Below, piece after piece: positions 13,597 through 63,262 of a stretch of 64,000 nucleotides of DNA. A program made the position numbers and the translations under genes. The DNA is from Candidatus Bathyarchaeota archaeon. Its GTDB lineage: Archaea; Thermoproteota; Bathyarchaeia; 40CM-2-53-6. Under the pieces are notes generated by a model. The model was not told the DNA's origin and ran no database searches. It saw only the letters and a list, made by a program, of their open reading frames with translations. Within the stretch, counting starts at the first letter, position 1. Each line of letters starts with the position of its first letter. The stretch lies in NCBI GenBank assembly GCA_005888735.1, contig VBBN01000027.1, positions 99,845-163,844 of the forward strand, written 5' to 3'.

Positions 13597-15498
13597 GTGC
13601 AAATCGATTCAAAACCGAAACTCACTGTTGCATTCATGTTCTTAATCGCCCTAGGCGGACTTAGTCTTGCACATCCTGCAGGTCAGACCATCCTAAGCGG
13701 AAGCCCCGAATCTGGTCTCTTCAAAGCTGCTCCCACTGGATCATCCTGGAATACTGCCGTTACGTGCCAGCCAGTCATCGCCACCGTTAGGGATATTCTG
13801 GGAAGCCAGCTGAATAGCAACGGCGGGGCAACTTTCTCCGGAGGCTACGGGGTGTCAATTCCAGATAAGCGGTCGATAAACCCACCATGCAACGTAAACG
13901 CGAAACAAATGCTCGTAGAAATTCACAACGTAGTCCTGATAGACTTCAGTGCTGCAGACGAGTGCGGCGACCCAGGCTACAGTCCCCCAATTCCAAGCGC
14001 TTACTGTGATTCCACCGGGAACATCGAGGACCAGAACGACCACACCTTCGGCAGCAATTACAACATGGTAAGAATGCACACCGAGAACGACATGGACTGG
14101 AAGTACCATAGTATCGCTTATCCTGACGCGCCGATGGGTGTGCCGATAGATGTCCAGGGCTTCGTCTACTGGGACCCGAGCCACGTGGCAGAGGCTTGGC
14201 ATTCCTACTCCGGATGGGAACTCCACCCGCTCACCGCGTGGAGACTCTCCGGACAAGGCCAGCCTCTCACCGCCAGTTTCCTCTCCAGTCCAAGCAGCCC
14301 TGTCGTAAACACAAACGTCTACTTCGCGGCTACCCCCATGGGCGGAAGCTCCCCCTACATGTACGCGTGGACCTTCGGAGACGGCTCGACGGGGACCGGG
14401 GCAGCCCCAAGCCACGCGTACACAACCTCTGGCGTTTACACGGTCAGCTTAACAGTCACAGACTCGGCGGGCGGTTCGTCACAAGTCTCCAACGTTGTCT
14501 CGGTTTCGTCTCCAGCTCCGCTTGTCGCAAGCTACCAGTACCTACCATCAACACCGTTAGCAGCGGAAACGGTAACCCTAACAGCCTCAGCCACCGGCGG
14601 ACAACCAGGCTACGGTTACGCTTGGCAGTTCGGCGATGGAGCGAGCGCAAGCGGGAACCCGATCAGCCACTTATACACAACGCCCGGAAGCTATGTAGTA
14701 ATCCTAACCGCAACCGATTCGGTCGGGCACAAGGCCACCTTCTCTGAAACCATCAGCGTTCTTTCTTCTTCGCCTCCACCCCTCAACACGTATTTTGTAT
14801 TTGCCAACCCGTCAGGGGTTGATCTCTCAAACCAACTCTCCTGGCAGGTCATGGACGGAGACGTTCAAGTCACCAGCAGCAGCCCAGCCCTTCTAGACAC
14901 GACTAAAGTCTATTTTCTCAACGTCTTCTACCAGGGTCGTCTTGTGGAGAGTCGAACATTCAGCCCCCAGCCCTCGATATTGATAACAGTCTACATGTAT
15001 CCCCACCAGTCGGCTACGAACGGCTACATCGCGTTCAACTCAACAATCAACACCTTCGCCATAACAGAACAATCCGGCTCGCGCCTTCGGTTCACAGCCC
15101 TCTCCGCGTATGGAACAGGCTCCTCTGATCACATGATCATAGTCAAGGTTCCCAAGTCGCCAGCGCTAGTGCAAAGAACCGGGTCCGATTATCCATTCTC
15201 CTTCGACCAGTCCAACAACGTTGTCATCATAGAAAGCCCCACGCTGTCAGATTGGAATCTCATCTTCAACACTCCCTTACAACCCCCGTCTCCTCCGACA
15301 TCACAGCCACCGACCAGCCAACCACAATCTCACTGCCAGATATGCCTGAACACCCGAGGCCCTGTTTACTTCCTGTCGTTGCTCGCTTTAGGAGCAATAG
15401 TGGGGCTCGTCCTCACGTTACTGGTTCTAACTGCAGGGGCAAGAAGGCGTCTTCGAAAGACCCGCCGGACATATCACAAAAGAGTGCTCTTGGAATAG
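13597..15498 (+). CDS. Cell-surface protein with two PKD domains and C-terminal TM anchor
   Basis: Signal peptide MQIDSKPKLTVAFMFLIALGGLSLAHPAG. PKD signatures YAWTFGDGSTGTG...YTVSLTVTDSAGG and YAWQFGDGASASG...YVVILTATDSVGH. A PPSPPTSQPPTSQP linker leads to a TM helix and an RRRLRKTRR tail. Confidence 0.8.
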   Translation: MQIDSKPKLTVAFMFLIALGGLSLAHPAGQTILSGSPESGLFKAAPTGSSWNTAVTCQPVIATVRDILGSQLNSNGGATFSGGYGVSIPDKRSINPPCNVNAKQMLVEIHNVVLIDFSAADECGDPGYSPPIPSAYCDSTGNIEDQNDHTFGSNYNMVRMHTENDMDWKYHSIAYPDAPMGVPIDVQGFVYWDPSHVAEAWHSYSGWELHPLTAWRLSGQGQPLTASFLSSPSSPVVNTNVYFAATPMGGSSPYMYAWTFGDGSTGTGAAPSHAYTTSGVYTVSLTVTDSAGGSSQVSNVVSVSSPAPLVASYQYLPSTPLAAETVTLTASATGGQPGYGYAWQFGDGASASGNPISHLYTTPGSYVVILTATDSVGHKATFSETISVLSSSPPPLNTYFVFANPSGVDLSNQLSWQVMDGDVQVTSSSPALLDTTKVYFLNVFYQGRLVESRTFSPQPSILITVYMYPHQSATNGYIAFNSTINTFAITEQSGSRLRFTALSAYGTGSSDHMIIVKVPKSPALVQRTGSDYPFSFDQSNNVVIIESPTLSDWNLIFNTPLQPPSPPTSQPPTSQPQSHCQICLNTRGPVYFLSLLALGAIVGLVLTLLVLTAGARRRLRKTRRTYHKRVLLE

Positions 15499-15828: not shown

Positions 15829-18705
15829 ATGGCCGTTAGAAGTCGTGCGAGGCTGGACAAGAAGAAGATATCGAGAGATGTAGTCGCAATCATCCTCCTG
15901 CTCGCCACTACTACCCCGGCTGCGTTCCACGCAGTCCGGGCTCAAGGACTTGCAGCCAGCATCACATACACACCAACATCACCCGCAAGAACGGAGACCG
16001 TTACCTTTACCGGATCTGCCACGGGAGGCGTACCACCATATACATTCTCATGGACCCTCGGCGACGCCTCCACCGTAACCGGCTCCACCGTCTCCCACAC
16101 CTATGCCTCGAGCGGCGCTTACACTGTCAACTTGACAGTTACCGATTCCAACCTGCAACAAGCCTTCCAGGCACAGAAGGTCATCGTCACCAACTATCAT
16201 GGGTTCAGCTTCGGCATAGCCAGCGACATCGGCAACCTCAACGTCGGCTACAGCAACAATGCCCTCTACGCATCTCGGCAGAGCCTCCTACGCCTCGGCA
16301 ACAGCACGGGCTTGAGCTTCTTCATTGCCAATGGCTGGTTCGCGGATGGGTTCTATTACCGGAATGAGGCCGCGTGGTGCAGCGAGTTCAAAGCCCACTA
16401 CTCTAACATAGTCCTCGTCGCAGGTGAGACCGATACCGGCTGGACGAGTGTCCCCTATAGCGACATCATCTACGACAGCAACACTAATGGCGTATACGAC
16501 AACTCCGGCTCAGGACCTGACAGTATTTTGTTCAACGGTTGGGGGGGAGGCAGCCGTCTGCCCGGCCCAGTCAACGGGAGTCCAATAGCGTCAGATAACA
16601 GGATCCGGTACTGGGACGCCAACCATGACAATCAATGGAACCCCGGCGAGGCTATCGTCGATGACGATGCTGGTGTTAGCTTTATGCGTGCCTACTATCC
16701 TGTAATGGTTGGGCCGATACCTCCCACTGGCACTCCGCTCTCGTCTGACCCCAAGCTGAAGTATTTCCAGCGGGACAGCAACCGGTTCTATGTTCGTCCC
16801 CAGACCAACGGCGACTTTGAACAATACGTCATCAACTGCGGCTTCCCGTCGAGCCTCGGAACATGGCACGGCAGCGGCATCAACTGCGGCAACGCCCTCC
16901 CCGGCCAGCCCGGCTACACTTTCCCCACGTGCTACGGTCGCGAATACTACTTCGACATAGGATATCCGACACCGGAGTTGCGTATCGTGGCGATTAGCCC
17001 CACGGTACAGAATATCACCGGCCGCATGACCGTATTCGGCACCGACACTTGGCTCTACCAGAAGAACGATGCGCACTACAACTGGGTCAACCAGACAATA
17101 CAGGCAGCCCGGGCGGCCGGGATCCCCCAAACCATGGTGGTCAGTTTTGACCAGTGCATGGGCACCACCGTTGAAGAGTGTGGCCAAAGCTTCCATCACC
17201 AGAGCGCCTACGACTCCACCGGGACCCAGATCGAAGGGGATCTATGGTCATTACTACTTGACAGTCTTGGCCCACAAGGCGCTAGGATAACCTACTTGGT
17301 CCAAGGAGAGGACAAGGGATACAGCAGGTTCTACCCGTTGGCAACCCATCCTGCCCCCCCTTTTACGAGTGACGGACTAGGCTGCCTTTGGGACAGTGCC
17401 ACCGGCAATCATGGCTTCCCGTTGATAAAATACTCCTATGACACCCCCGCAGATCTCTACCCTGTATACAACCCAGCCTGTTTCGCCAACCCGCAGACCC
17501 CTGGGCAGCCGTACACTCCTTGGCCCGGCCTCGCCGGCCAAGGGGCATCGCTAATCATCTCCGCGGCTTTCGGCGCTGGCCTATACAACACACTCTACCC
17601 GGGAGAAATCCTAGTCAAAGACGTGAAGGGCACTGGGTTCTATGAACCGGGCTACGCCTACATTGGAGGCATCCAGCCCGTCCCGGGAACTATGCTCACG
17701 GGCAACCAGGCCACTAACAGCCACGTCGGCTTCATAGACACGAACGGCAATGGCCAATGGGACTTGGGCGAGACACTCTTTCGAGATTCGGACAACACCG
17801 ACGGCTGCACTGGTGGAACCACCTGTAACGGGAAATACGACCCCGGCGAGACCGTATACTCTGGGCCGGTTCCTAGCACTCAACAGCCCGCAGCTTTCAA
17901 CGACACAGATGTGAAGCTAATCGACACCAATGGGAACGGTAAATGGGACAGGCTCGGCGGAGCACCCCACAACGTCCTCGAAACACCCTACATAGCCACT
18001 TCAATGGGTGCAAATACACCATGCAACAATCTCGCCTACTCGACCACATGCCCCGGGCACGGCTGGGTCACTTTTGCCTTCAACCCGGCTGGCAACCAGA
18101 CGAACATAGACACGAACTTCTGCATTGACGGAGAACGGCCAACGCCTAACTATGCGTCCTGCATCAGCCCCCACGTCTACAAGGACAAGTATGTCACGGT
18201 CACATCAACTCTGCCCGTCCAGAAAGGCTTCTCCGTCACAGGCTCATTCTACGGCGTCTCAGCGACGATGGCCGCCTACCTCGGCTCCGATCCAGCCATC
18301 ATGCCGACCGCATGGCTCACCGCGGCAAACACCAGTAGCGCTCAACCCTTCGTCGTCCATACCGCTACCTATCTGAACGTCACTCAGACAAGCCAGGGCT
18401 TCAAGTTCGTCTACCAGATCAACACCACAACCTCGACGAACCGCGCCCAGCCCTGGCTCGCCTTCGCCTGCAAGTATACACCCGGCGTGTCAAACAACCC
18501 TTGCGGCTTCCAGAGGACACTAGACATAAACCATGACGGTATGGTGAACATATCCGATATCGCGGCATGCGCTCTCGCCTGGGAGTCTCACCCTGGGGAT
18601 TCGAAGTGGAACGTAAACTGTGATATCAACAACGATGGTGCAGTGAACATATTCGATATCGCAAACATGGCATTATATTTCGACAGCCCAGTGTTCACAG
18701 TATAA
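15829..18705 (+). CDS. Large secreted protein: PKD domain, Ca-binding-like repeat region and C-terminal type-I dockerin
   Basis: Signal peptide. PKD signature FSWTLGDASTVTG...YTVNLTVTDSN. Several DTNGNGQWDLGE / DTNGNGKWD / DANHDNQWNPGE motifs. The C-terminal DINHDGMVNISDIAACALAW...CDINNDGAVNIFDIANMALYF is a canonical duplicated dockerin Ca-binding segment. Confidence 0.8.
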   Translation: MAVRSRARLDKKKISRDVVAIILLLATTTPAAFHAVRAQGLAASITYTPTSPARTETVTFTGSATGGVPPYTFSWTLGDASTVTGSTVSHTYASSGAYTVNLTVTDSNLQQAFQAQKVIVTNYHGFSFGIASDIGNLNVGYSNNALYASRQSLLRLGNSTGLSFFIANGWFADGFYYRNEAAWCSEFKAHYSNIVLVAGETDTGWTSVPYSDIIYDSNTNGVYDNSGSGPDSILFNGWGGGSRLPGPVNGSPIASDNRIRYWDANHDNQWNPGEAIVDDDAGVSFMRAYYPVMVGPIPPTGTPLSSDPKLKYFQRDSNRFYVRPQTNGDFEQYVINCGFPSSLGTWHGSGINCGNALPGQPGYTFPTCYGREYYFDIGYPTPELRIVAISPTVQNITGRMTVFGTDTWLYQKNDAHYNWVNQTIQAARAAGIPQTMVVSFDQCMGTTVEECGQSFHHQSAYDSTGTQIEGDLWSLLLDSLGPQGARITYLVQGEDKGYSRFYPLATHPAPPFTSDGLGCLWDSATGNHGFPLIKYSYDTPADLYPVYNPACFANPQTPGQPYTPWPGLAGQGASLIISAAFGAGLYNTLYPGEILVKDVKGTGFYEPGYAYIGGIQPVPGTMLTGNQATNSHVGFIDTNGNGQWDLGETLFRDSDNTDGCTGGTTCNGKYDPGETVYSGPVPSTQQPAAFNDTDVKLIDTNGNGKWDRLGGAPHNVLETPYIATSMGANTPCNNLAYSTTCPGHGWVTFAFNPAGNQTNIDTNFCIDGERPTPNYASCISPHVYKDKYVTVTSTLPVQKGFSVTGSFYGVSATMAAYLGSDPAIMPTAWLTAANTSSAQPFVVHTATYLNVTQTSQGFKFVYQINTTTSTNRAQPWLAFACKYTPGVSNNPCGFQRTLDINHDGMVNISDIAACALAWESHPGDSKWNVNCDINNDGAVNIFDIANMALYFDSPVFTV

Positions 18706-55864: not shown

Positions 55865-56436
55865 ATCTGCTCGGCCGTCTTACTCGAAGTACTACGTTTG
55901 AAGGCGTGTCTTCAGTCGAGAACGATTCGCTCCTCGGCTTCAAGACTTTTCTACCACAAGGCAAGCCTGAGAGGGCGGAGTTGGCTGAAACGTCTCAGAC
56001 TCAAGTTCCACGCACGACCATTTCTCCGACAGAAGTTGTGAGAAAATACAGGATTATTGCTGTTGTCGGCGCGTCCAAGAATCCGGAGAAGGAGGCATAC
56101 TCAGTTCCAAAATACATGCAGGAGCATGGTTACAAGATTATCCCAGTTAATCCGACCGCAGACCAGATCCTCGGCGAGAAGGCTTATCGAAGCCTAGAAG
56201 AGCTACCCTCGGAACTAGCAAAACAGATCGAGCTGGTGAATGTTTTCCGGCCAAGCGAGGAACTCCCACAGGTGGCTCAACAAGTAATTGAGATGCGGAA
56301 AAAATACGGACGGCCCTTCGCGTTCTGGGCCCAACTTGGACTCGAGAACGACGAGGCCAAGCGGGCTCTGGCCAAGAACGGGATTCCGTATGTGATGGAT
56401 GCCTGCTTCAGGGTTGTCCACCGATCCCTGCGATAG
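55843..56436 (+). CDS. CoA-binding domain protein (YccU/SucD-N-like)
   Basis: RIIAVVGASKNPEKEAYSVPKYMQEHGYKIIPVNP is the Rossmann CoA-binding signature. The probable real start is near TTG 55981, so the overlap with the upstream minus-strand gene is likely spurious. Confidence 0.7.
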   Translation: MQLSCTSNLLGRLTRSTTFEGVSSVENDSLLGFKTFLPQGKPERAELAETSQTQVPRTTISPTEVVRKYRIIAVVGASKNPEKEAYSVPKYMQEHGYKIIPVNPTADQILGEKAYRSLEELPSELAKQIELVNVFRPSEELPQVAQQVIEMRKKYGRPFAFWAQLGLENDEAKRALAKNGIPYVMDACFRVVHRSLR

Positions 56437-56460: not shown

Positions 56461-58881
56461 ATGACGTTTAGCGAGCTACTTCCCGATAAACTACGGCTGG
56501 AATGCCCGCCCGGCTCGGTGGGCTGTGAGACAAGCGAAGAACTCGGGCCAATAGAAGGCATCATCGGCCAGGACCGCGCTCTGAGAGCGCTGAAGTTCGC
56601 CGTCGAGATGAAGGGGAAGGGCTTCAACGTTTACGCTGCAGGGATCCCAAGCACCGGAAAGAGACCGGCCACAAGGGATTATTTGCGGGGAATCGCGAAG
56701 ACAAAACCTACTCCGCCAGACTGGGTCTACGTGAACAATTTCGAGAACTCCTATGAGCCCAAAGCCCTCCAACTTCCTCCCGGCACAGCGAAAAGCTTCC
56801 AAAAAGACCTGAAGAATTTCGTAGACCAGGCCAAACGCGCAGTTCCCGCAGCCCTTCAGAGCGAGGAATTCGTCTCACGCACGAACACCATAACGAAGAA
56901 GTCAGTGGAGGAGAGAAACAGGATTCTCAACGAGCTCAGCGAAGAAGCGCGACGCCACAATTACGCGGTTCGAATGACGCAGCTCGGCATCACAATTGTT
57001 CCTATGCAGGCGGGAAAGCCGCTCAGCCAGGAGGAGTTCGACGCGCTACCGGCCCGAGTGAAGAAGAAGTTTGACGAGAGCCGGGAAACGGTGAGAAACG
57101 CTCTCGACAAGGCCGGAAAGCAGGTCAACGAGCTCGAAGCGAAGACTTTGGATGAGCTGCGAAAGCTTAGAGACGACTCTGTTCACTACGCGATAGGCGG
57201 GCTCATCAGCAAACTAGTCTCCAACTACGAGAACCTCCCGGAGATAACTCAATACTTCGAGGAGCTTAGAGACGACATCTTAGAGAACGCGGACCTGTTC
57301 GCTCAGCCTGAAAAACCCCCGTCCCCACCTTCATCAGACGATTCTGAGGATCCGACACCAAACCTCGGTGAGAAGGCTCTGCCTAACCTGTCTTTCCGGA
57401 GATACCAGGCCAACGTAATCGTGGACAATTCAGGCCTGAAAGGAGCACCGGTCATCATCGAAGACAACCCGACTGTTACGAATCTTCTCGGCCGGATCGA
57501 GAACGAGGCACGGTTCGGTGCTCTAACAACGGATTTCACTCTCATCAGGGGAGGGTCGGTTCACAAGGCGAACGGCGGCTATCTAATCATCGGGGTCGAC
57601 GAGCTTCTGAAAAACCAGTTCTCCTACGACGGGTTAAAGAGGGCATTACAGAGCGGAAACATAGCGATTGAGGAGACGGGCCAGAGGCTGGGGGTCGCCA
57701 GCACCAAGAGCCTTACGCCACAGCCGATTCCCCTAAGCGTGAAAGTTGTCATCGCCGGGGACCATCAGAGCTACCAGGCGCTCTACACCCTCGACCCGGA
57801 CTTCAGCCTCCTCTTCAAAGTCAAAGCCCACTTCGACGATTCCATCGATAGAAATGAGGATAGCATGAAGAACTACGGAAGGTTCGTACACACCCTCTGC
57901 GAACGGGAAAGCCTCAACCATCTAGAAGCGGCGGCAATTGCGAAAATTGTGGAACACGGGTCTAGGTTGGCGGAAGACCAAAGCAAGCTCTCAACGAAGT
58001 TTCCGGAAATCGCGGACCTGGTCCGAGAGGCCAGCTTGTACGCTTCGCAGGACAGGTCCAAGTACATCAAAGGCCCGCATGTCTTGAAGGCGCTCCAAGA
58101 GAAGGTCTACAGGTCCAACCTCATTGACCAGAAAGTGAAAGAGATGATACAGAGAGGCATCATTCTCATAGATACCGCGGGGTCGAAGGTCGGGCAGGTA
58201 AACGGTCTCTCTGTCATAGCGCTGGGCGACTTCGAGTTCGGCCAACCCTCCCGGATTACTGTCAGCCTTGGGCTGGGTAGAAAGGGAATCATCGACATCG
58301 AACGACAAGCCGGTATGGGAGGACAGACACATACGAAAGGGGTCCTCATAATCTCCGGCTATCTAGAGAATAAGTACGCGCATGACAAGCCGTTGAGCGT
58401 TTCATGCAGGCTGGTCTTTGAGCAGAGCTACGGAGGTGTTGACGGAGACAGTGCATCCAGCACAGAACTATACGCCATTCTCTCAGTACTATCCGAGCTA
58501 CCGATCAAGCAAAACCTGGCCGTGACTGGCTCGGTGAACCAGAAGGGCGAGATTCAGGCAATTGGAGGGGTTAACGAGAAAATCGAGGGATTCTACGAGA
58601 CATGCAAGGCCAAAGGGCTCAAAGGTGACGAGGGAGTCATGATTCCCAAGAGCAATGTCCAGCACCTAATGCTCAAAGAGGACGTGGTCGAGGCTGTGAA
58701 GCAGGGCAGATTCCACATCTACCCTGTGGGGACGGTGGATGAGGGCATCGAGATTCTCACCGGCGTAAAAGCCGGCGAGAGGAATAGTGATGGGACCTAT
58801 GATGAGGGCACGGTCCATCACAGGGCGGACAAACGGCTGGCTCAAATGGCTGAAGAAATCGCCAAGTTTACCAGGCTGTAA
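56461..58881 (+). CDS. Lon-like S16 protease with degenerate AAA+ module and helical insertion (LonC-like)
   Basis: Protease domain with the Ser-Lys dyad context GGVDGDSASSTELYAILS...GGVNEKIEG. AAA-like N-terminus with a non-canonical P-loop GIPSTGKR, an intact Walker B LIIGVDE, and a ~140-aa charged helical insertion between them. No TM anchor, so not LonB. Confidence 0.8.
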   Translation: MTFSELLPDKLRLECPPGSVGCETSEELGPIEGIIGQDRALRALKFAVEMKGKGFNVYAAGIPSTGKRPATRDYLRGIAKTKPTPPDWVYVNNFENSYEPKALQLPPGTAKSFQKDLKNFVDQAKRAVPAALQSEEFVSRTNTITKKSVEERNRILNELSEEARRHNYAVRMTQLGITIVPMQAGKPLSQEEFDALPARVKKKFDESRETVRNALDKAGKQVNELEAKTLDELRKLRDDSVHYAIGGLISKLVSNYENLPEITQYFEELRDDILENADLFAQPEKPPSPPSSDDSEDPTPNLGEKALPNLSFRRYQANVIVDNSGLKGAPVIIEDNPTVTNLLGRIENEARFGALTTDFTLIRGGSVHKANGGYLIIGVDELLKNQFSYDGLKRALQSGNIAIEETGQRLGVASTKSLTPQPIPLSVKVVIAGDHQSYQALYTLDPDFSLLFKVKAHFDDSIDRNEDSMKNYGRFVHTLCERESLNHLEAAAIAKIVEHGSRLAEDQSKLSTKFPEIADLVREASLYASQDRSKYIKGPHVLKALQEKVYRSNLIDQKVKEMIQRGIILIDTAGSKVGQVNGLSVIALGDFEFGQPSRITVSLGLGRKGIIDIERQAGMGGQTHTKGVLIISGYLENKYAHDKPLSVSCRLVFEQSYGGVDGDSASSTELYAILSVLSELPIKQNLAVTGSVNQKGEIQAIGGVNEKIEGFYETCKAKGLKGDEGVMIPKSNVQHLMLKEDVVEAVKQGRFHIYPVGTVDEGIEILTGVKAGERNSDGTYDEGTVHHRADKRLAQMAEEIAKFTRL

Positions 58882-58989
58882 AGGGAGACGGTTGCGAATT
58901 GACTAGCCGGTTGTAACTTTGGGCCAGTTCACAAAGTAACGACAGGGTTTCGACCGGTATCGAGCGTCCGACTTGGGCGATTCACGGCG

Positions 58990-59298
58990 ATGAGCTCTGC
59001 GGCCATCAACCGAGAAGTCATCTTAACGGTCATGGGTTTCGGTGTGGCGATGATACTTTTCGGGGTTGTCTTGCTGGTGTCCTGGGGCCAAAACCCTTTC
59101 TACATAGTGGCCGGCTTCTTTCTTCTTGTCCTCGGGATGGCGGCGTTCGTCACACCGCTCTCGATTTTCAGCAGGTGGGACAGTTTCCCGGTTCCTAAGG
59201 TGAGATGCAGACACTGTGCAACTCTAAACTACGAGACTACTGCCCGATGCAGGAACTGTGGCGCAAACATGTTCGAGCGAGCGGCACCCTTGAGCTAG
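58990..59298 (+). CDS. Membrane protein with C-terminal zinc ribbon (hypothetical)
   Basis: Two TM helices then CRHCATLNYETTARCRNCG. Lies 108 nt downstream of the Lon-like gene. Confidence 0.45.
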   Translation: MSSAAINREVILTVMGFGVAMILFGVVLLVSWGQNPFYIVAGFFLLVLGMAAFVTPLSIFSRWDSFPVPKVRCRHCATLNYETTARCRNCGANMFERAAPLS

Positions 59299-59817
59299 AT
59301 CTACAAGGTAGGTGTTGTCCCGAAAATATTGCTGACTGCTACTGCAAGCACAGCGGCAGTTAACTATCGCGAGCAGAGGTCTAAGCTTGATCGTGAAGTA
59401 AGCAAAGGCTGTAGCGTAGGCTGAGTGAAGGCTTGTAAACGCGGCGAATTTGTCCGATTCCATTAACTGGGTGAACCAGCCTCCATACACTGAGAGCTGC
59501 TCGATCAGTTCAGGACCAAGTTCTGCGGGGTCCCCTGGTACTAGGGAGGCAGGGTTGGGAGGAGGAATAGGGTGAGAGCTGCGAAGGTGTGATCAGCATC
59601 GTGTTGACGACGACCGGTAGAGGGGATTGTTGGCAAGCCAGAAGGGGCTGAGGCTGCTAGGACTAGGGGGAAGTGGAGACCGTAGAAGACGAGAGCGATA
59701 ATCGTGGCTGAAACTGATTGCAGGTGTGATTGGACCAGCAGGTCAGGTTGAAGCCGCACGGCTACTGTTATCCGGTATCATACCACCTTATTAAGAATAA
59801 CCAAACGAGTGCGAAGC

Positions 59818-61328
59818 ATGGAAAAACTTTCGCGGTCTCTACTGCTCCTTCTCATACTTTCAATGTTATTGCCCGTGTCTAGTCTCGCTAGTCCAAACGT
59901 CTATGCTCCAGGCACTTCCAACTAGTTTGCATATGGTCCAAACATGGAAGCTGGGCGCTTGCAACGCATAGTTAGCAGTCAAGCAGTGTTTCTCGATATT
60001 GTTCGCGTCAACAATTACAAGTTCGTGATTGACCATTCCAATTCCAATGGAACTGGCACTTCAGATGTTGTGAGTAGTACAGGCGATTACGTGCAGGGCG
60101 TTTTGTGGCAAATACCACTGTCGCAACAGACTGCTCTTGATATCGCTGAAGGTGTTCCAACCGCCTACCAGCGCAACGACAATTTCAAGGTCATCAGCAT
60201 GACGACGGGCTTCACAACTGTGGCCAGCGTCTACACCGTAGTCAGTCCAGTCAGTCCAGCCCCGGCGCCAGACAGTTTTTTCATAACTTATGTTCGAGCT
60301 GGCATCGTACAGCACAGCGTCGGACTGCAATACCTCAACAAGATCAACGCGATTCTCACACCTGCGACAGCAACTCCCCCAGGCATCTGGGCAACCAACG
60401 TCGTGACAATACTGATGGAAAATGAGGGCCTTGAGGACGCCACCCTTTCTGGGACTTGTAGTTTCAACCCACCGCGTGGCGGGGATCACTTTCCCTTTCT
60501 TGACTTTACCGACATGATCACAACGGCCAGGTGTGCCAACTTTCTGACTACGGTCTCTGCAAGCAACGACCAAGAATTCGTCGACGCCCTCGCAACGACA
60601 GCCACCAACTATGTCTGGCTGACGCCAAACGATTGCAATAACATGCATGGCGTTTCGGGCAATCCGAGTCCCTGCACAAATCATTGTACGACGGTCCCCG
60701 CGAATGATACTTGTATAGCAGATGTTGATACATACATCGCCAACCTCGTACAAAAAATCCTCAGTAGCACGATGTTCACCACAGCTTATTCAGCGCTGTT
60801 CGTCCTGTTCGACGAAGGCGGCAACTTCTGCCCAACCTCTCCATCTGGGGCGGGTCCCCTTGGTGACTGCGTTCCCTTCATCGCCGCTGGTCCGGCCGTA
60901 AAGGCAGCCTACCAAACCACTTCAAACTTCAACCATTACGGCTATCTAGTGACACTAGAGCAGAACTTTCAAGCATCGTGTCTCGTGAAGCGAACGACTG
61001 CGGTGCAAACGTGTTCAGCGAGGTCTTCAAGACGCAGACCGGAAACTTCGACGCAAGCTGGTACATCAACAACTGTCCGACCACAAGTCCGAACGGCGCA
61101 GGCAGCACAGAGTCCATTTCGACCTCGGGCGTTCTATCAACAAATGAATACATTCCAGGCGGAGATAGCAACAGCTTCGGCTTTTGCTCTATTGAGAAGG
61201 GAGTGTTTCCCTTCGCACCCAACGGTGTTGGTAGCGCTCTCTCCCCAGCATCAGGCATTAGCCTCACTGGCACTCTAACAACAGCAACCCTGTCCCCGCC
61301 TCCGTCGCAATACCACCTGCGGAACTAG
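59818..61328 (+). pseudogene. Secreted GGCT-like (AIG2/gamma-glutamylcyclotransferase fold) - phosphoesterase (AcpA/PLC-family) fusion, disrupted by an in-frame TAG and a late frameshift
   Basis: ATG 59818 encodes a signal peptide MEKLSRSLLLLLILSMLLPVSSLASP...GTSN, then TAG at 59923-59925. The same frame continues FAYGPNMEAGRLQRIV...GDYVQGVLWQI...LDIAEGVPTAYQR (GGCT motifs), then phosphoesterase motifs (VVTILMENEG, NYVWLTPNDCNNMHG, ALFVLFDEGG, GDCVPFIAAGPAVKAAY, HYGYLVTLEQNF). The codon-usage-consistent C-terminus (ANDCGANVFSEVF...) continues in the -1 frame to 61328. Confidence 0.55.
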
Positions 61329-61926
61329 GCTCGGAAGTTCGAGGAATACTGTTAGGAAGAGAAAAACGATAGGTAAAAGAGATTTCAGTTTGGTCGAATA
61401 AAGCATTGTCAGTCTAGTTTCCCGTGGGAGCTATTAGGTCTTTCCAATAATTCTTGACAAATAACGTAGCATGGAACCGACTGTCGCACAGTCTCGACGC
61501 TTCTGCATAGGTAGCAGATGCCAACCTTTTGGAGACGGAGTGCAGTTTTTAGCGAACTTTGCCCTTCTTCGGGCCTTCTCTACCCGCCATTTTCTTCCGT
61601 TTCTTCTGCCAGTCTGGACGAGTCATCCATGATCTCTGTGAACATCTCCACAACGGTCCTACATAATACTAGGAGTCGCAACGAGAAGGCCGCCATGGGC
61701 AGCTCGGAAGGTTGCTCTACACAATCTGTTTATTGATGGTTTTCGTTTTTCAGTCCGTTCTTTGAGGTTAGCCCGATTGTTCCCCGTTTGTAGCGTTCGA
61801 CCAGTTCGAGAAGGCTTGGCGGGCTGACCAGGCCATCGGGGCAACAGTGGTCTGACGCATTAAAGCTAGGACTGGAACCAGTCACAAGAAAATCCGGTGG
61901 CTTGACTTGAGCATGCATTTCAAGGC

Positions 61927-62628
61927 TCAGCACTTCCACTCTTCCGCCTTGGTAGAGCCCCGAATTTCTCCCTGTAGAACATCGTAAGCCAGTGGTCCAT
62001 CTCTGTCGTCAACGACCATTATGATGTCACCGTAGCCTAGAAATGCATCTAGGATGTTTACCCCGTTTCTGAACAGCAGTTCGGTAATGTAGGATGCTAT
62101 ACCAGGGGTCATCTCGGCGCGAGGTGACAGGTTGAGTGTCAGCTTGGCCACGTTCGCCAGTGTCGCCGCCCCCCTAAGATGTCCTAGTTTCCCCTCGATC
62201 AAAGCGTAATCGTCTCTTGGCAGAATGAGTTTGATCGAGTTCAAGAGGGGAAAGATATGGGGGAACTCTGACAGCTCGGCCGCGGCGTCTGACAGTTCTT
62301 TGACTATGGCTGAGAATTGGTTTCTGGACGCTTTCATCGTCACGTCTACTATTCCGCTTGAAAGGGAGATTCTGGCGTCCTTGAGAACCCTTGACGCGTC
62401 CGGTGTGTTGCTACTGGATAGGGTGTCGGAGAATCTCTTGATTGCTACGACAAGCGCGTTGATGCTTGCTTCTTTCCCGCTCAGTTGTTTGACTTGGGCT
62501 TGGATGAGCTCTGCGAGGGAGTGAAAGTTCACGACCCTCATCTTCAGGCATTGAAAGACGGGGTAGTTTCTGGTTAGAATTTCGCGGACCGCTTCAGGTA
62601 CGCTGAGGCTGTTTCTAGGGGCTGTCAA
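61927..62628 (-). CDS. ACT-domain-containing protein (aspartokinase regulatory-domain-like)
   Basis: Two ACT-like beta-alpha-beta-beta-alpha-beta segments (ISLSSGIVDVTMK...; GIASYITELLFRNGVNILDAFLGYGDIIMVVDDRD). Confidence 0.5.
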   Translation of the reverse strand: MTAPRNSLSVPEAVREILTRNYPVFQCLKMRVVNFHSLAELIQAQVKQLSGKEASINALVVAIKRFSDTLSSSNTPDASRVLKDARISLSSGIVDVTMKASRNQFSAIVKELSDAAAELSEFPHIFPLLNSIKLILPRDDYALIEGKLGHLRGAATLANVAKLTLNLSPRAEMTPGIASYITELLFRNGVNILDAFLGYGDIIMVVDDRDGPLAYDVLQGEIRGSTKAEEWKC

Positions 62629-62722: not shown

Positions 62723-63262
62723 ATGCAAGAGAAAAAAACAACAATGCAAACCAATATGAGTTTCCCGACCTACGTCTTCGCGACCGTCAATCCGGGCCGC
62801 GCGACGAAAGTGGTTGAGGAGCTAAAGCGAAATAGCCAGATAGACCTCATCGCACCGGTCACAGGCAGATACGACCTAGTTCTACGCCTGAAACCAAACA
62901 CACCACACAACGTATACCAGACAGTCAAAGAAATCCGCGAGATCAACGACATTCGCACCACCGATACTCACATCGGCTTCGACGGTATTCAGCCGACCCG
63001 AAAGCTCGAGAGCCAGATGGCCCTTGGGTTTTCCTTGCTAAATTGTGAGCACACCCCTAGCGAGAACGTCATTAAGCAGCTCAGCAACATCCCAGGCTTC
63101 ATCGAAGCATCGACAGTACCAGGACAGTTCGACATCGTAGCACTCTGGCAAGCAAGAACCTCTGAAGACATAGTGAAGACTTCCGTTGAGAAAGTTACTA
63201 ATCTCGAAGGCATCTTCAAGAGCGAGACACTTCTCGCCTATGCACCGTTCTTCAAAGCGTAA
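62723..63262 (+). CDS. Tandem Lrp/AsnC ligand-binding (RAM) domain protein without HTH
   Basis: Two RAM-like halves (VFATVNPGRATKVVEELKRNSQIDLIAPVTGRYDLVLRLK; IKQLSNIPGFIEASTVPGQFDIVALWQAR). Confidence 0.65.
   Translation: MQEKKTTMQTNMSFPTYVFATVNPGRATKVVEELKRNSQIDLIAPVTGRYDLVLRLKPNTPHNVYQTVKEIREINDIRTTDTHIGFDGIQPTRKLESQMALGFSLLNCEHTPSENVIKQLSNIPGFIEASTVPGQFDIVALWQARTSEDIVKTSVEKVTNLEGIFKSETLLAYAPFFKA

What the first reader, a model, noticed from the sequence alone, without database searches (positions are those of the whole stretch)
59818..61328. Secreted GGCT-like/phosphoesterase fusion interrupted by an in-frame TAG between signal peptide and mature domain, plus a -1 frameshift near the C-terminus
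A 35-codon signal-peptide ORF from ATG 59818 ends in TAG at 59923-59925. The same frame continues directly into FAYGPNM..., the conserved N-terminal strand of AIG2/GGCT-fold proteins, so the TAG splits a single ancestral ORF. TAG is a normal stop elsewhere in the window, so pyrrolysine is unlikely. Around 60976-60985 the conserved phosphoesterase C-terminal region (expected ...IEDNWGL..AWRRAVTGDLTSAF) switches frame: HYGYLVTLEQNF is in frame 0 and SREANDCGANVFSEVF is in frame -1, and frame -1 has the genome-typical C-ending codons. A GGCT-like domain fused to an AcpA/PLC-type phosphoesterase is itself an unusual architecture.
Basis: partly seen in the sequence, partly recalled or inferred. Interest (0 to 1): 0.55.

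Follow-up and report, generated by a model that had tools for sequence, protein, structure and literature searches.

The report
Decaying secreted-enzyme pseudogene in soil archaeon
This is a broken, decaying gene for a secreted two-domain enzyme in a soil Bathyarchaeota population; the stop codon and frameshift are real mutations rather than recoding or sequencing error, so the finding is ordinary.

Summary
ATG 59818 opens a 35-codon signal-peptide ORF that ends at TAG 59923-25. The same frame continues into a GGCT/AIG2-like domain and then a PF04185 phosphoesterase domain. The coding frame shifts by -1 at about 60982-60987. A family HMM shows an in-frame loss of 77 core positions of the phosphoesterase domain, including the invariant HPSEPNY motif that aligns to the nucleophile motif of phospholipase C. 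The deletion is present in all seven other assemblies of this near-clonal population (99.4-100% identical DNA), and the frameshift is present in the six that reach that site. The TAG replaces a conserved Tyr, which is TAC in three assemblies, and TAG recurs in two other assemblies, so it is a segregating nonsense allele. Other strains carry a second nonsense codon (60424) and a 2-bp deletion (61192-93). Nucleotide diversity in the gene is about 2.7 times that of the neighbouring Lon gene, and 8 of its 10 SNPs are missense or nonsense. TAG is the commonest stop in the window (20 of 47). There is no slippery site and no stimulatory RNA structure. The SP-GGCT-phosphoesterase domain order occurs only in this population. 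However, the nearest GGCT-like relatives sit in secreted phosphoesterase-GH5-GGCT-dockerin proteins, so the two domains do co-occur elsewhere. Interest is low.

The parts
59788..59795 (+). TTATTAAG, a TATA-box-like element about 26 nt upstream of ATG 59818 (possible archaeal promoter of a leaderless transcript)
   Evidence: Read by eye. This is an inference only and was not tested.
59818..59922 (+). Signal-peptide ORF of 35 codons: charged n-region (K3, R6), hydrophobic core LLLLLILSMLLPV, and an SLA|SP cleavage-like site
   Evidence: Homologous phosphoesterase proteins start with comparable signal peptides. No signal-peptide predictor was run.
59923..59925 (+). Premature TAG, a nonsense allele of TAC (Tyr). 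This Tyr is the residue before FAYG in the GGCT N-terminal motif (x)YFAYGSNM
   Evidence: TAG is present in the window, L084 and L086. TAC is present in L001, L002 and L003. The alignment has Y or F at the residue before FAYG in most canonical members. The linked private change TCC/TTC lies at 59918.
59926..60357 (+). GGCT/AIG2-like domain (aa 37-180) with the family-invariant residues kept: FAYGxNM, G-V, LD..EG (catalytic-Glu position, 60136-60153), and Y..R
   Evidence: phmmer against 1.84 billion representatives gave 432 hits, all of the GGCT-like type. Those hits pass the Pfam GGACT and AIG2_2 cutoffs. A family profile hits human GGCT structure 2i5t at 3e-38.
60358..60390 (+). Pro/Thr/Ala linker TPATATPPGIW between the two domains
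   Evidence: Homologues have a PPxPPP linker at the same place.
60391..60438 (+). N-terminal motif of the phosphoesterase domain (ATNVVTILMENEGLED, the E-N metal/activation motif)
   Evidence: The family HMM matches positions 30-63 here. tblastn with P0050 aa 13-45 also matches.
60433..60441 (+). Junction of an in-frame internal deletion. 77 family-HMM positions (64-140), including the invariant HPSEPNY nucleophile motif, are missing with no residues in between
   Evidence: HMM 30-63 ends at aa 207 and HMM 141-319 starts at aa 206. The invariant residues H97, S99, N102 and Y103 of the family are shown. They align to GPTNPNR of phospholipase C 8k3g. The missing segment is not found anywhere else in the window.
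60442..60984 (+). C-terminal two-thirds of the phosphoesterase domain in frame 1 (SGTCSFNPPRGGDHF ... NDCNNMH ... FDEGG ... NHYGYLVTLEQNFQASCL). It includes a 20-aa lineage-specific insertion at 60652-60711
   Evidence: 206.7 bits, E = 2.4e-65 against the family HMM. One search shows 40-51% identity to Bathyarchaeota phosphoesterase/PKD proteins.
60982..60987 (+). Frameshift site. The ancestral reading frame moves from frame 1 to frame 0 (-1), consistent with loss of one base. There is no X XXY YYZ heptamer
   Evidence: The DNA is identical in L001, L002, L003, L086, L087 and L088. There is no stable downstream structure (z = +2.15).
60987..61328 (+). Frame-0 continuation: the end of the phosphoesterase domain (EANDCGANVFSEVF) plus a truncated Ser/Thr/Gly-rich tail, ending at TAG 61326-28
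   Evidence: The tail is weakly similar to regions downstream of the domain in P0050, P0045, P0048 and P0037. P0050 continues about 180 aa further.
60985..61278 (+). Out-of-frame read-through of frame 1 (VKRTTAVQTCSARSSRRRPETST...), which is what the 486-aa product of the TAC strains actually ends with
   Evidence: Its codon-usage score of -0.29 is non-coding-like.

Best explanation
The locus is a lineage-specific pseudogene in a soil Bathyarchaeota population. It is the remnant of a gene for a secreted protein: Sec signal peptide, GGCT/AIG2-like domain, then a PF04185 (AcpA/PLC-type) phosphoesterase domain and a C-terminal tail. Two lesions are present in every assembly that covers them. One is an in-frame loss of about 77 residues from the phosphoesterase core that removes the nucleophile motif. 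The other is a one-base frameshift at about 60982-60987 that replaces the end of the domain with out-of-frame sequence. Free of selection since then, the gene has been collecting further mutations that still segregate in the population. These include the TAC-to-TAG nonsense mutation at 59923-25 carried by the window's strain, which cuts the signal peptide off from everything downstream. No product of this locus in the window's strain can be a functional secreted enzyme. Shown here: the lesions, their presence in independent assemblies, and the excess of damaging polymorphism. Inferred: that the deletion abolishes folding and catalysis, and the order of events.
For: (1) A family HMM matches in two abutting pieces with positions 64-140 absent. 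The absent part holds the family-invariant H-P-S-x-x-N-Y. That motif aligns to GPTNPNR in phospholipase C 8k3g. The Thr of this motif type is the nucleophile in NPC4 and a Ser is the nucleophile in AcpA (PMC9837106). (2) The frame switch is supported by homology and by codon usage. (3) Seven other metagenome assemblies carry the same locus at 99.4-100% identity. All seven carry the deletion, and all six that reach the frameshift site carry the frameshift. (4) The disabling alleles differ between strains. TAG at 59925 is in the window, L084 and L086, against TAC in L001-L003. GAG-to-TAG at 60424 is in L084 and L087. A 2-bp deletion at 61192-93 is in L086. (5) Of 10 SNPs in the gene, 8 are missense or nonsense and 2 are synonymous, against 2:4 in Lon. 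Pairwise diversity is 0.0034 in the gene, 0.0013 in Lon and the upstream genes, and 0 in the downstream genes. (6) Related Bathyarchaeota genomes (72-78% Lon identity) have no copy beside Lon, and no protein or contig with this domain order exists outside the population. (7) TAG ends 20 of 47 ORFs. There is no Rfam hit, slippery heptamer or stable structure.
Against: The GGCT-like domain still has every family-invariant residue, and the reading frame from 59926 to 60984 has good codon usage. Decay is therefore recent, and the GGCT module of the TAC allele could still be made and secreted. The polymorphism counts are small: Fisher p = 0.12 for N:S against Lon. Metagenome consensus sequences may mix strains. 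No reads, transcripts or proteins were examined. The claim that loss of 77 residues prevents folding is an inference and was not tested.
Confidence: 0.82

Rival explanations
1. The gene is only partly dead. In strains with TAC, the 486-aa protein is made and secreted and its GGCT-like domain works, with the phosphoesterase remnant as inert baggage. The window's TAG is then a loss-of-function polymorphism of a dispensable exoenzyme.
For: The GGCT-like domain is full length and retains the invariant residues, including the catalytic-Glu position. The signal peptide and a TATA-like element are intact. Codon usage in the domain is gene-like. Three assemblies keep the ORF open.
Against: Missense and nonsense variants are spread over the whole gene, including P100Q inside the GGCT domain. 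Diversity is higher than in the intergenic flanks. A protein with a broken alpha/beta core and about 98 aa of out-of-frame tail is likely to misfold. The nonsense allele is found in 3 of the 6 assemblies that cover the site.
Confidence: 0.13
2. The stop and the frameshift are sequencing or assembly errors in an intact gene.
For: The window's two differences from L001-L003 at this site (59918, 59925) lie within 8 bp, and another pair of private differences is clustered at 55895-55900. Such clustering can be a sign of local consensus problems.
Against: The TCC..TAG haplotype recurs in L084 (NCBI WNEQ01003813.1) and L086 (JGI Ga0066709). The frameshift region is base-for-base identical in seven assemblies made by different groups and assemblers, and it is not in a homopolymer. 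The 77-residue gap cannot be a base-calling error.
Confidence: 0.03
3. Expression is programmed recoding: TAG is read through or decoded as pyrrolysine, and the ribosome makes a -1 frameshift to produce a full-length protein.
For: I recall reports of pyrrolysine genes in some Bathyarchaeota; this is from memory and was not checked here. The two interruptions leave long open frames on both sides.
Against: TAG is the most frequent stop in the window, 20 of 47. The same codon is an ordinary Tyr codon in sister strains. There is no X XXY YYZ slippery site at 60960-60990. The RNA downstream of both sites folds no better than shuffled sequence (z = +2.15 and +0.92). There are no Rfam matches. Even a perfectly recoded product would lack the catalytic core.
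Confidence: 0.01

Closest known systems
PF04185 phosphoesterase family (Francisella AcpA, bacterial PlcH/PLC, plant NPC4); more precisely the Bathyarchaeota secreted phosphoesterase(-PKD) proteins P0002-P0050
   Same: The locus has the ILMEN (E-N) motif, SGTCSFxPPRxxDHF, NDxxNxH, FDEG (the D-E pair) and NHYS/G..T.E..W/F motifs. It is 40-51% identical to the archaeal members over the retained part. An N-terminal signal peptide is also shared.
   Different: It lacks 77 core positions, including the HPSEPNY nucleophile motif. It has a 20-aa insertion, a frameshift before the last conserved segment, and a GGCT-like domain in front of it. None of the 50 homologues has these features.
Gamma-glutamylcyclotransferase / AIG2-like fold (human GGCT C7orf24, PDB 2i5t/2pn7; Pfam GGACT PF06094, AIG2_2 PF13772)
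   Same: The domain has the same length and the motifs (Y)FAYGxNM, G-V, LD..EG and Y.R in the right order. The family profile hits GGCT structures at 3e-38.
   Different: The motif reads YGPN rather than YGSN. The Pfam scores of the window domain itself fall just below the curated cutoffs. The domain sits behind a signal peptide, whereas characterised GGCTs are cytosolic (my own knowledge). No activity is known for this subgroup.
Secreted phosphoesterase-GH5-GGCT-dockerin proteins (P0054, the L085 798-aa ORF, P0206; uncharacterised)
   Same: These are the closest relatives of the GGCT-like domain (40-45% identity). They also combine it with a PF04185 domain in a secreted protein.
   Different: The domain order is the reverse and a GH5 domain lies between the two. 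A dockerin is present there and absent here. Their phosphoesterase domain is complete, and only 35% identical to the window's.
Ordinary prokaryotic pseudogenes with segregating loss-of-function alleles
   Same: Multiple independent disabling mutations are present. Some are shared by all assemblies that cover them and some are polymorphic. Diversity is raised and damaging changes are in excess.
   Different: Nothing essential differs. This locus is a clean example seen in metagenome assemblies.

Membership tests
PF04185 phosphoesterase (AcpA/PLC/NPC) | Significant match to the family model | tested here: met
   Pfam scores 24.9 bits against a cutoff of 23, covering only profile positions 258-354. 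The custom archaeal family HMM scores 213 bits.
PF04185 phosphoesterase (AcpA/PLC/NPC) | N-terminal E-N motif (ENRSFD in PLC/NPC; ILMEN in the archaeal group) | tested here: met
   VVTILMENEGLED at 60400-60438 aligns to HMM positions 50-63. The counterpart in 8k3g is ILLENRSFD.
PF04185 phosphoesterase (AcpA/PLC/NPC) | Hydroxyl nucleophile motif (TxPNR in PLC/NPC, Ser in AcpA; HPSEPNY in the archaeal group) | tested here: not met
   HMM positions 64-140 are absent from the protein and from the whole window. The motif is invariant in homologues and aligns to GPTNPNR of 8k3g. The nucleophile role is taken from PMC9837106.
PF04185 phosphoesterase (AcpA/PLC/NPC) | D-E pair (DExxG) and the conserved His before it | tested here: met
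   FDEGG lies at 60808-60822 and NDCNNMH at 60628-60648.
PF04185 phosphoesterase (AcpA/PLC/NPC) | Uninterrupted reading frame through the whole domain | tested here: not met
   A -1 frameshift at 60982-60987 precedes the last conserved segment.
GGCT / AIG2-like (PF06094, PF13772) | Match to the family models | tested here: inconclusive
   The window domain scores 22.7 against a cutoff of 22.8 (GGACT) and 23.7 against 27 (AIG2_2). phmmer finds 432 relatives, of which the five canonical ones I sampled (plus the close relative P0206) pass both cutoffs. The joint profile hits GGCT structures at 3e-38.
GGCT / AIG2-like (PF06094, PF13772) | N-terminal YGSN(M/L) substrate-binding motif | tested here: inconclusive
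   The motif is present as FAYGPNM (Ser replaced by Pro). The closest relative has FAYGRDM. In the window's strain, the conserved Tyr before it is the TAG codon.
GGCT / AIG2-like (PF06094, PF13772) | Catalytic Glu in the LD..EG motif (Glu98 of human GGCT, from my own knowledge) | tested here: met
   LDIAEG at 60136-60153. The E column is invariant in the 18-sequence alignment and aligns to LDEQEG of 2i5t.
GGCT / AIG2-like (PF06094, PF13772) | Gamma-glutamyl cyclotransferase activity | not testable with these tools
   This needs an enzyme assay.
Pyrrolysine (TAG) recoding | TAG rare as a stop, and a conserved in-frame TAG in orthologues | tested here: not met
   TAG ends 20 of 47 ORFs. Sister strains have TAC at this codon.
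Programmed -1 ribosomal frameshift | Slippery heptamer X XXY YYZ plus a downstream stimulatory structure | tested here: not met
   There is no such heptamer in 60958-60990. The fold z-score is +2.15.

The most novel reading that the evidence does not exclude
The GGCT/AIG2-like module found here behind a signal peptide, and in its closest relatives between a GH5 cellulase and a dockerin, could be a new extracellular use of the GGCT fold in soil Bathyarchaeota. It might, for example, act on gamma-glutamyl- or amide-linked polymers alongside phosphoesterase and glycosidase modules in a cellulosome-like assembly. On this reading the window's locus is a recently abandoned, rearranged member of that set, and the TAC allele may still export an active GGCT-like domain.
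Probability: 0.2. Interest if true: 0.45.

Novelty: already known. Interest (0 to 1): 0.12.

Why it matters
For annotation, this locus should be called a pseudogene. It should not be annotated as a 444-aa or 486-aa "phosphoesterase", a recoded gene or a novel fusion enzyme. It also shows that metagenome assemblies of one near-clonal soil archaeal population can reveal gene decay in progress: two lesions are present in every assembly that covers them, and at least three further disabling alleles are still segregating. The only point of wider interest is indirect. The nearest relatives reveal a small, uncharacterised set of secreted archaeal phosphoesterase-GH5-GGCT-dockerin proteins, which suggests an extracellular role for the GGCT fold.

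Tried and rejected
(1) Syntenic orthologues. I used the neighbouring Lon protease to fetch 80 loci from GTDB species genomes. The six closest Bathyarchaeota loci (72-78% Lon identity) have neither this gene nor its neighbours p102, p233 and p179 downstream of Lon, so no ancestral intact copy could be recovered. (2) More divergent copies of the fusion. The protein searches, the exhaustive phmmer search and the JGI metagenome DNA scan found the SP-GGCT-phosphoesterase order only in the same 99%-plus identical population. (3) Remnants of further domains in the 519-bp and 598-bp non-coding flanks: none. (4) The missing 77-residue segment elsewhere in the window: none. (5) RNA elements, repeats or mobile-element ends around the gene. 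There were no Rfam hits and only one chance-level 25-nt repeat. (6) Recoding signals: none. (7) A single-sequence search of PDB with a homologue gave nothing, so a profile was needed. (8) The context of P0054 could not be looked up because it is not on record. (9) MAFFT aligned ATNVVTILMENEGL to the internal APNIIDRIEASGRTW segment of homologues. I rejected this in favour of the HMM alignment to the N-terminal FDxIVTILMENxGL motif, which has many more identities. Either way the nucleophile region is absent. (10) Structure prediction was not run. It would not discriminate, because AlphaFold tends to model truncated domains confidently from the alignment.

Full report
**1. What is in the sequence**

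ATG 59818 opens a 35-codon ORF, MEKLSRSLLLLLILSMLLPVSSLASPNVYAPGTSN. It has the layout of a Sec signal peptide: a basic n-region, a Leu-rich core and an SLA|SP cleavage-like site. The ORF stops at TAG 59923-25. The same frame continues as FAYGPNMEAGRL... and stays open to TAA at 61276-78. A 116-codon ORF in the -1 frame runs 60978-61328 and carries SREANDCGANVFSEVF. TAG is not special in this genome, because it terminates 20 of 47 long non-overlapping ORFs in the window. The neighbouring genes place the window in a soil Bathyarchaeota lineage. These are an archaeal-type Lon protease (78% identical to Bathyarchaeota/"Crenarchaeota" soil MAGs), a thermosome, TBP, and PKD/dockerin proteins.

**2. 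Domain identities**

Pfam hits on the repaired protein are marginal: Phosphoesterase 24.9 bits, AIG2_2 23.7 and GGACT 22.7.

Stronger tests confirm the N-terminal domain.
- phmmer against 1.84 billion representative proteins finds 432 relatives.
- The five canonical relatives I sampled, plus the close relative P0206, pass both Pfam cutoffs.
- A joint profile hits human gamma-glutamylcyclotransferase structures at 3e-38.
- The window domain keeps FAYGxNM, the G-V pair, LD..EG (the catalytic-Glu position) and Y.R.

Stronger tests also confirm the C-terminal domain.
- It is 40-51% identical to about 50 secreted PF04185 proteins. Most carry PKD repeats, and the named one comes from Bathyarchaeota.
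- It scores 213 bits against an HMM built from them.

**3. The frameshift**

That HMM aligns ...NHYGYLVTLEQNFQASCL (frame 1, ending at 60984) straight into EANDCGANVFSEVFKTQT (frame 0). This matches the family consensus ..tleaaWglpslt.snDasa..teFf. A codon-usage log-odds score trained on 23 window genes gives the following values per codon:

| Segment | Frame 1 | Frame 0 |
|---|---|---|
| GGCT part and phosphoesterase part (before the site) | +0.31, +0.24 | -0.62, -0.57 |
| After 60988 | -0.29 | +0.37 |

Real genes in the window score 0.25-0.45. The shift therefore lies at about 60982-60987 and is equivalent to the loss of one base. There is no X XXY YYZ heptamer. The downstream 100 nt fold less stably than shuffled sequence (z = +2.15).

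**4.

The family HMM matches in two abutting pieces. Positions 30-63 cover aa 174-207 (..ATNVVTILMENEGLED) and positions 141-319 cover aa 206-409. Seventy-seven model positions are absent, with no residues in their place. In homologues this segment contains the invariant H-P-S-x-x-N-Y, plus several invariant Asp, Glu, Gly and Trp residues. A profile of the homologues aligns HPSEPNY to GPTNPNR of phospholipase C 8k3g. In this superfamily a Thr is the catalytic nucleophile in NPC4 (T158) and a Ser is the nucleophile in AcpA (PMC9837106). That the aligned Ser/Thr of HPSEPNY and GPTNPNR is this nucleophile is my own inference from motif knowledge. The missing piece is nowhere else in the window. 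The domain also has a 20-aa insertion (60652-60711). Its frame-0 tail stops after about 95 residues, whereas the most similar tail (P0050) continues about 180 residues further. The phosphoesterase "domain" is therefore a catalytically dead remnant, independent of the TAG and the frameshift.

**5. Population evidence**

The same locus occurs in seven other assemblies at 99.4-100% identity.

| Locus | Source | Record |
|---|---|---|
| L001 | JGI | Ga0066685 |
| L002 | ENA | CRIT18-1 |
| L003 | ENA | k141_117623 |
| L084 | NCBI | WNEQ01003813.1 |
| L086 | JGI | Ga0066709 |
| L087 | JGI | Ga0134083 |
| L088 | JGI | Ga0134075 |

- **Shared lesions.** All seven carry the 77-residue gap. All six that reach the frameshift site have the same sequence there, which is not a homopolymer.
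- **The TAG allele.** L001-L003 read TTC..TAC (Phe..Tyr) and encode an uninterrupted 486-aa product, P0001. The window, L084 and L086 read TCC..TAG. The Tyr is the residue before FAYG, a position held by Tyr or Phe in most canonical members of the GGCT N-terminal motif. TAC is therefore ancestral, and TAG is a real nonsense allele recovered three times.
- **Further disabling alleles.** GAG-to-TAG at 60424 is in L084 and L087. A 2-bp deletion at 61192-93 is in L086.
- **SNP spectrum.** Of 10 SNPs in the gene, 2 are nonsense, 6 are missense (including D272G at a family-invariant Asp) and 2 are synonymous. Lon has 2 missense and 4 synonymous. Fisher p = 0.12, which is only suggestive.
- **Diversity.** Pairwise diversity is 0.0034 in the gene. 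It is 0.0013 in Lon and the upstream genes, 0.0017-0.0022 in the flanking intergenic DNA, and 0 in the two downstream genes.

Lesions shared by every assembly, several segregating lesions and a neutral-looking polymorphism spectrum are together what an abandoned gene is expected to show.

**6. Origin and the "fusion"**

Related Bathyarchaeota genomes have no copy downstream of Lon. Nothing with the order SP-GGCT-phosphoesterase was found outside this population. That covers 5.8 billion protein clusters, 1.84 billion representatives and the JGI metagenome contigs.

The closest relatives of the GGCT-like domain (40-45% identity) are domains of secreted proteins with a different layout: signal peptide, PF04185 phosphoesterase, GH5 cellulase, AIG2/GGACT, dockerin. 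Examples are P0054, the L085 798-aa ORF followed by an AIG2-dockerin ORF, and the P0206 fragment. The two domain types therefore recur together in this group. The window's gene is a differently ordered, lineage-specific combination, with a clean Pro/Thr linker joining the GGCT domain to the start of the phosphoesterase domain. How it arose cannot be reconstructed from the data.

**7. Alternatives**

- **Recoding** (pyrrolysine or read-through plus a -1 frameshift) is excluded for practical purposes. The reasons are TAG usage, the TAC allele, the lack of signals, and the fact that even a perfectly recoded product lacks its catalytic core.
- **Assembly error** is excluded by recurrence in independent assemblies.
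- **A partly live gene** is the one open alternative. In TAC strains the GGCT-like module, which is still intact in sequence, might be made and exported. I give this about 0.13.

In the window's strain the TAG separates the signal peptide from everything else. The next ATG (59944) lies inside the FAYGPNM motif, so a restart product would be cytosolic and would lack the first strand and the substrate-binding motif.

**8. Verdict**

The biological answer is an ordinary, recently decayed pseudogene. It is an already known kind of thing, and its interest is low.

Noticed in passing
P0054; L085:1975-4892; P0206 (relatives, not in the window): There is a small uncharacterised set of secreted archaeal proteins with the architecture signal peptide - PF04185 phosphoesterase - GH5 cellulase - AIG2/GGCT-like - dockerin. 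In L085 a second, partial AIG2 plus dockerin ORF overlaps the end of the 798-aa ORF. I do not know of any description of an extracellular GGCT-fold module next to a dockerin.
   Followed up: partly
window 15829-18705 (+) and 13597-15498 (+): Two large secreted-type proteins are encoded here. One is a 958-aa PKD protein ending in a type I dockerin and the other is a 633-aa multi-PKD protein. This suggests dockerin-based surface assemblies in this archaeon. No cohesin partner was looked for.
   Followed up: no
window 58989-59184 (5' half of the 102-aa zinc-ribbon membrane gene) versus L003: L003 differs from all other assemblies by about 55 substitutions packed into about 200 bp and is otherwise nearly identical (17 mismatches over the 3,036 bp that blastn aligns). 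This looks like a short recombination tract from a diverged strain.
   Followed up: no
window 58127-58210 (inside Lon) versus L084: L084 lacks 84 bp, in frame, within the Lon protease gene. It also shows a split UbiA gene. This is either real strain variation or a lower-quality assembly.
   Followed up: no
window 55895-55900: The window has a substitution (C versus G in L001 and L002) and a 1-nt gap (an extra A after 55900 in L001 and L002) within 6 bp, just upstream of the CoA-binding-domain gene. Like 59918/59925, it is a tight pair of differences.
   Followed up: no
window 59299-59817 and 61329-61926: The pseudogene is flanked by unusually long non-coding stretches for this compact genome (519 and 598 bp). 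They have no detectable protein remnants, RNA families or repeats. Three substitutions in L086 cluster at 61858-61871.
   Followed up: partly
window 61927-62628 (-): This 233-aa protein has only sub-threshold ACT_7 and DUF7523 hits. It is conserved at 100% across the assemblies and is divergently arranged with an AsnC/Lrp-type gene at 62723-63262.
   Followed up: no
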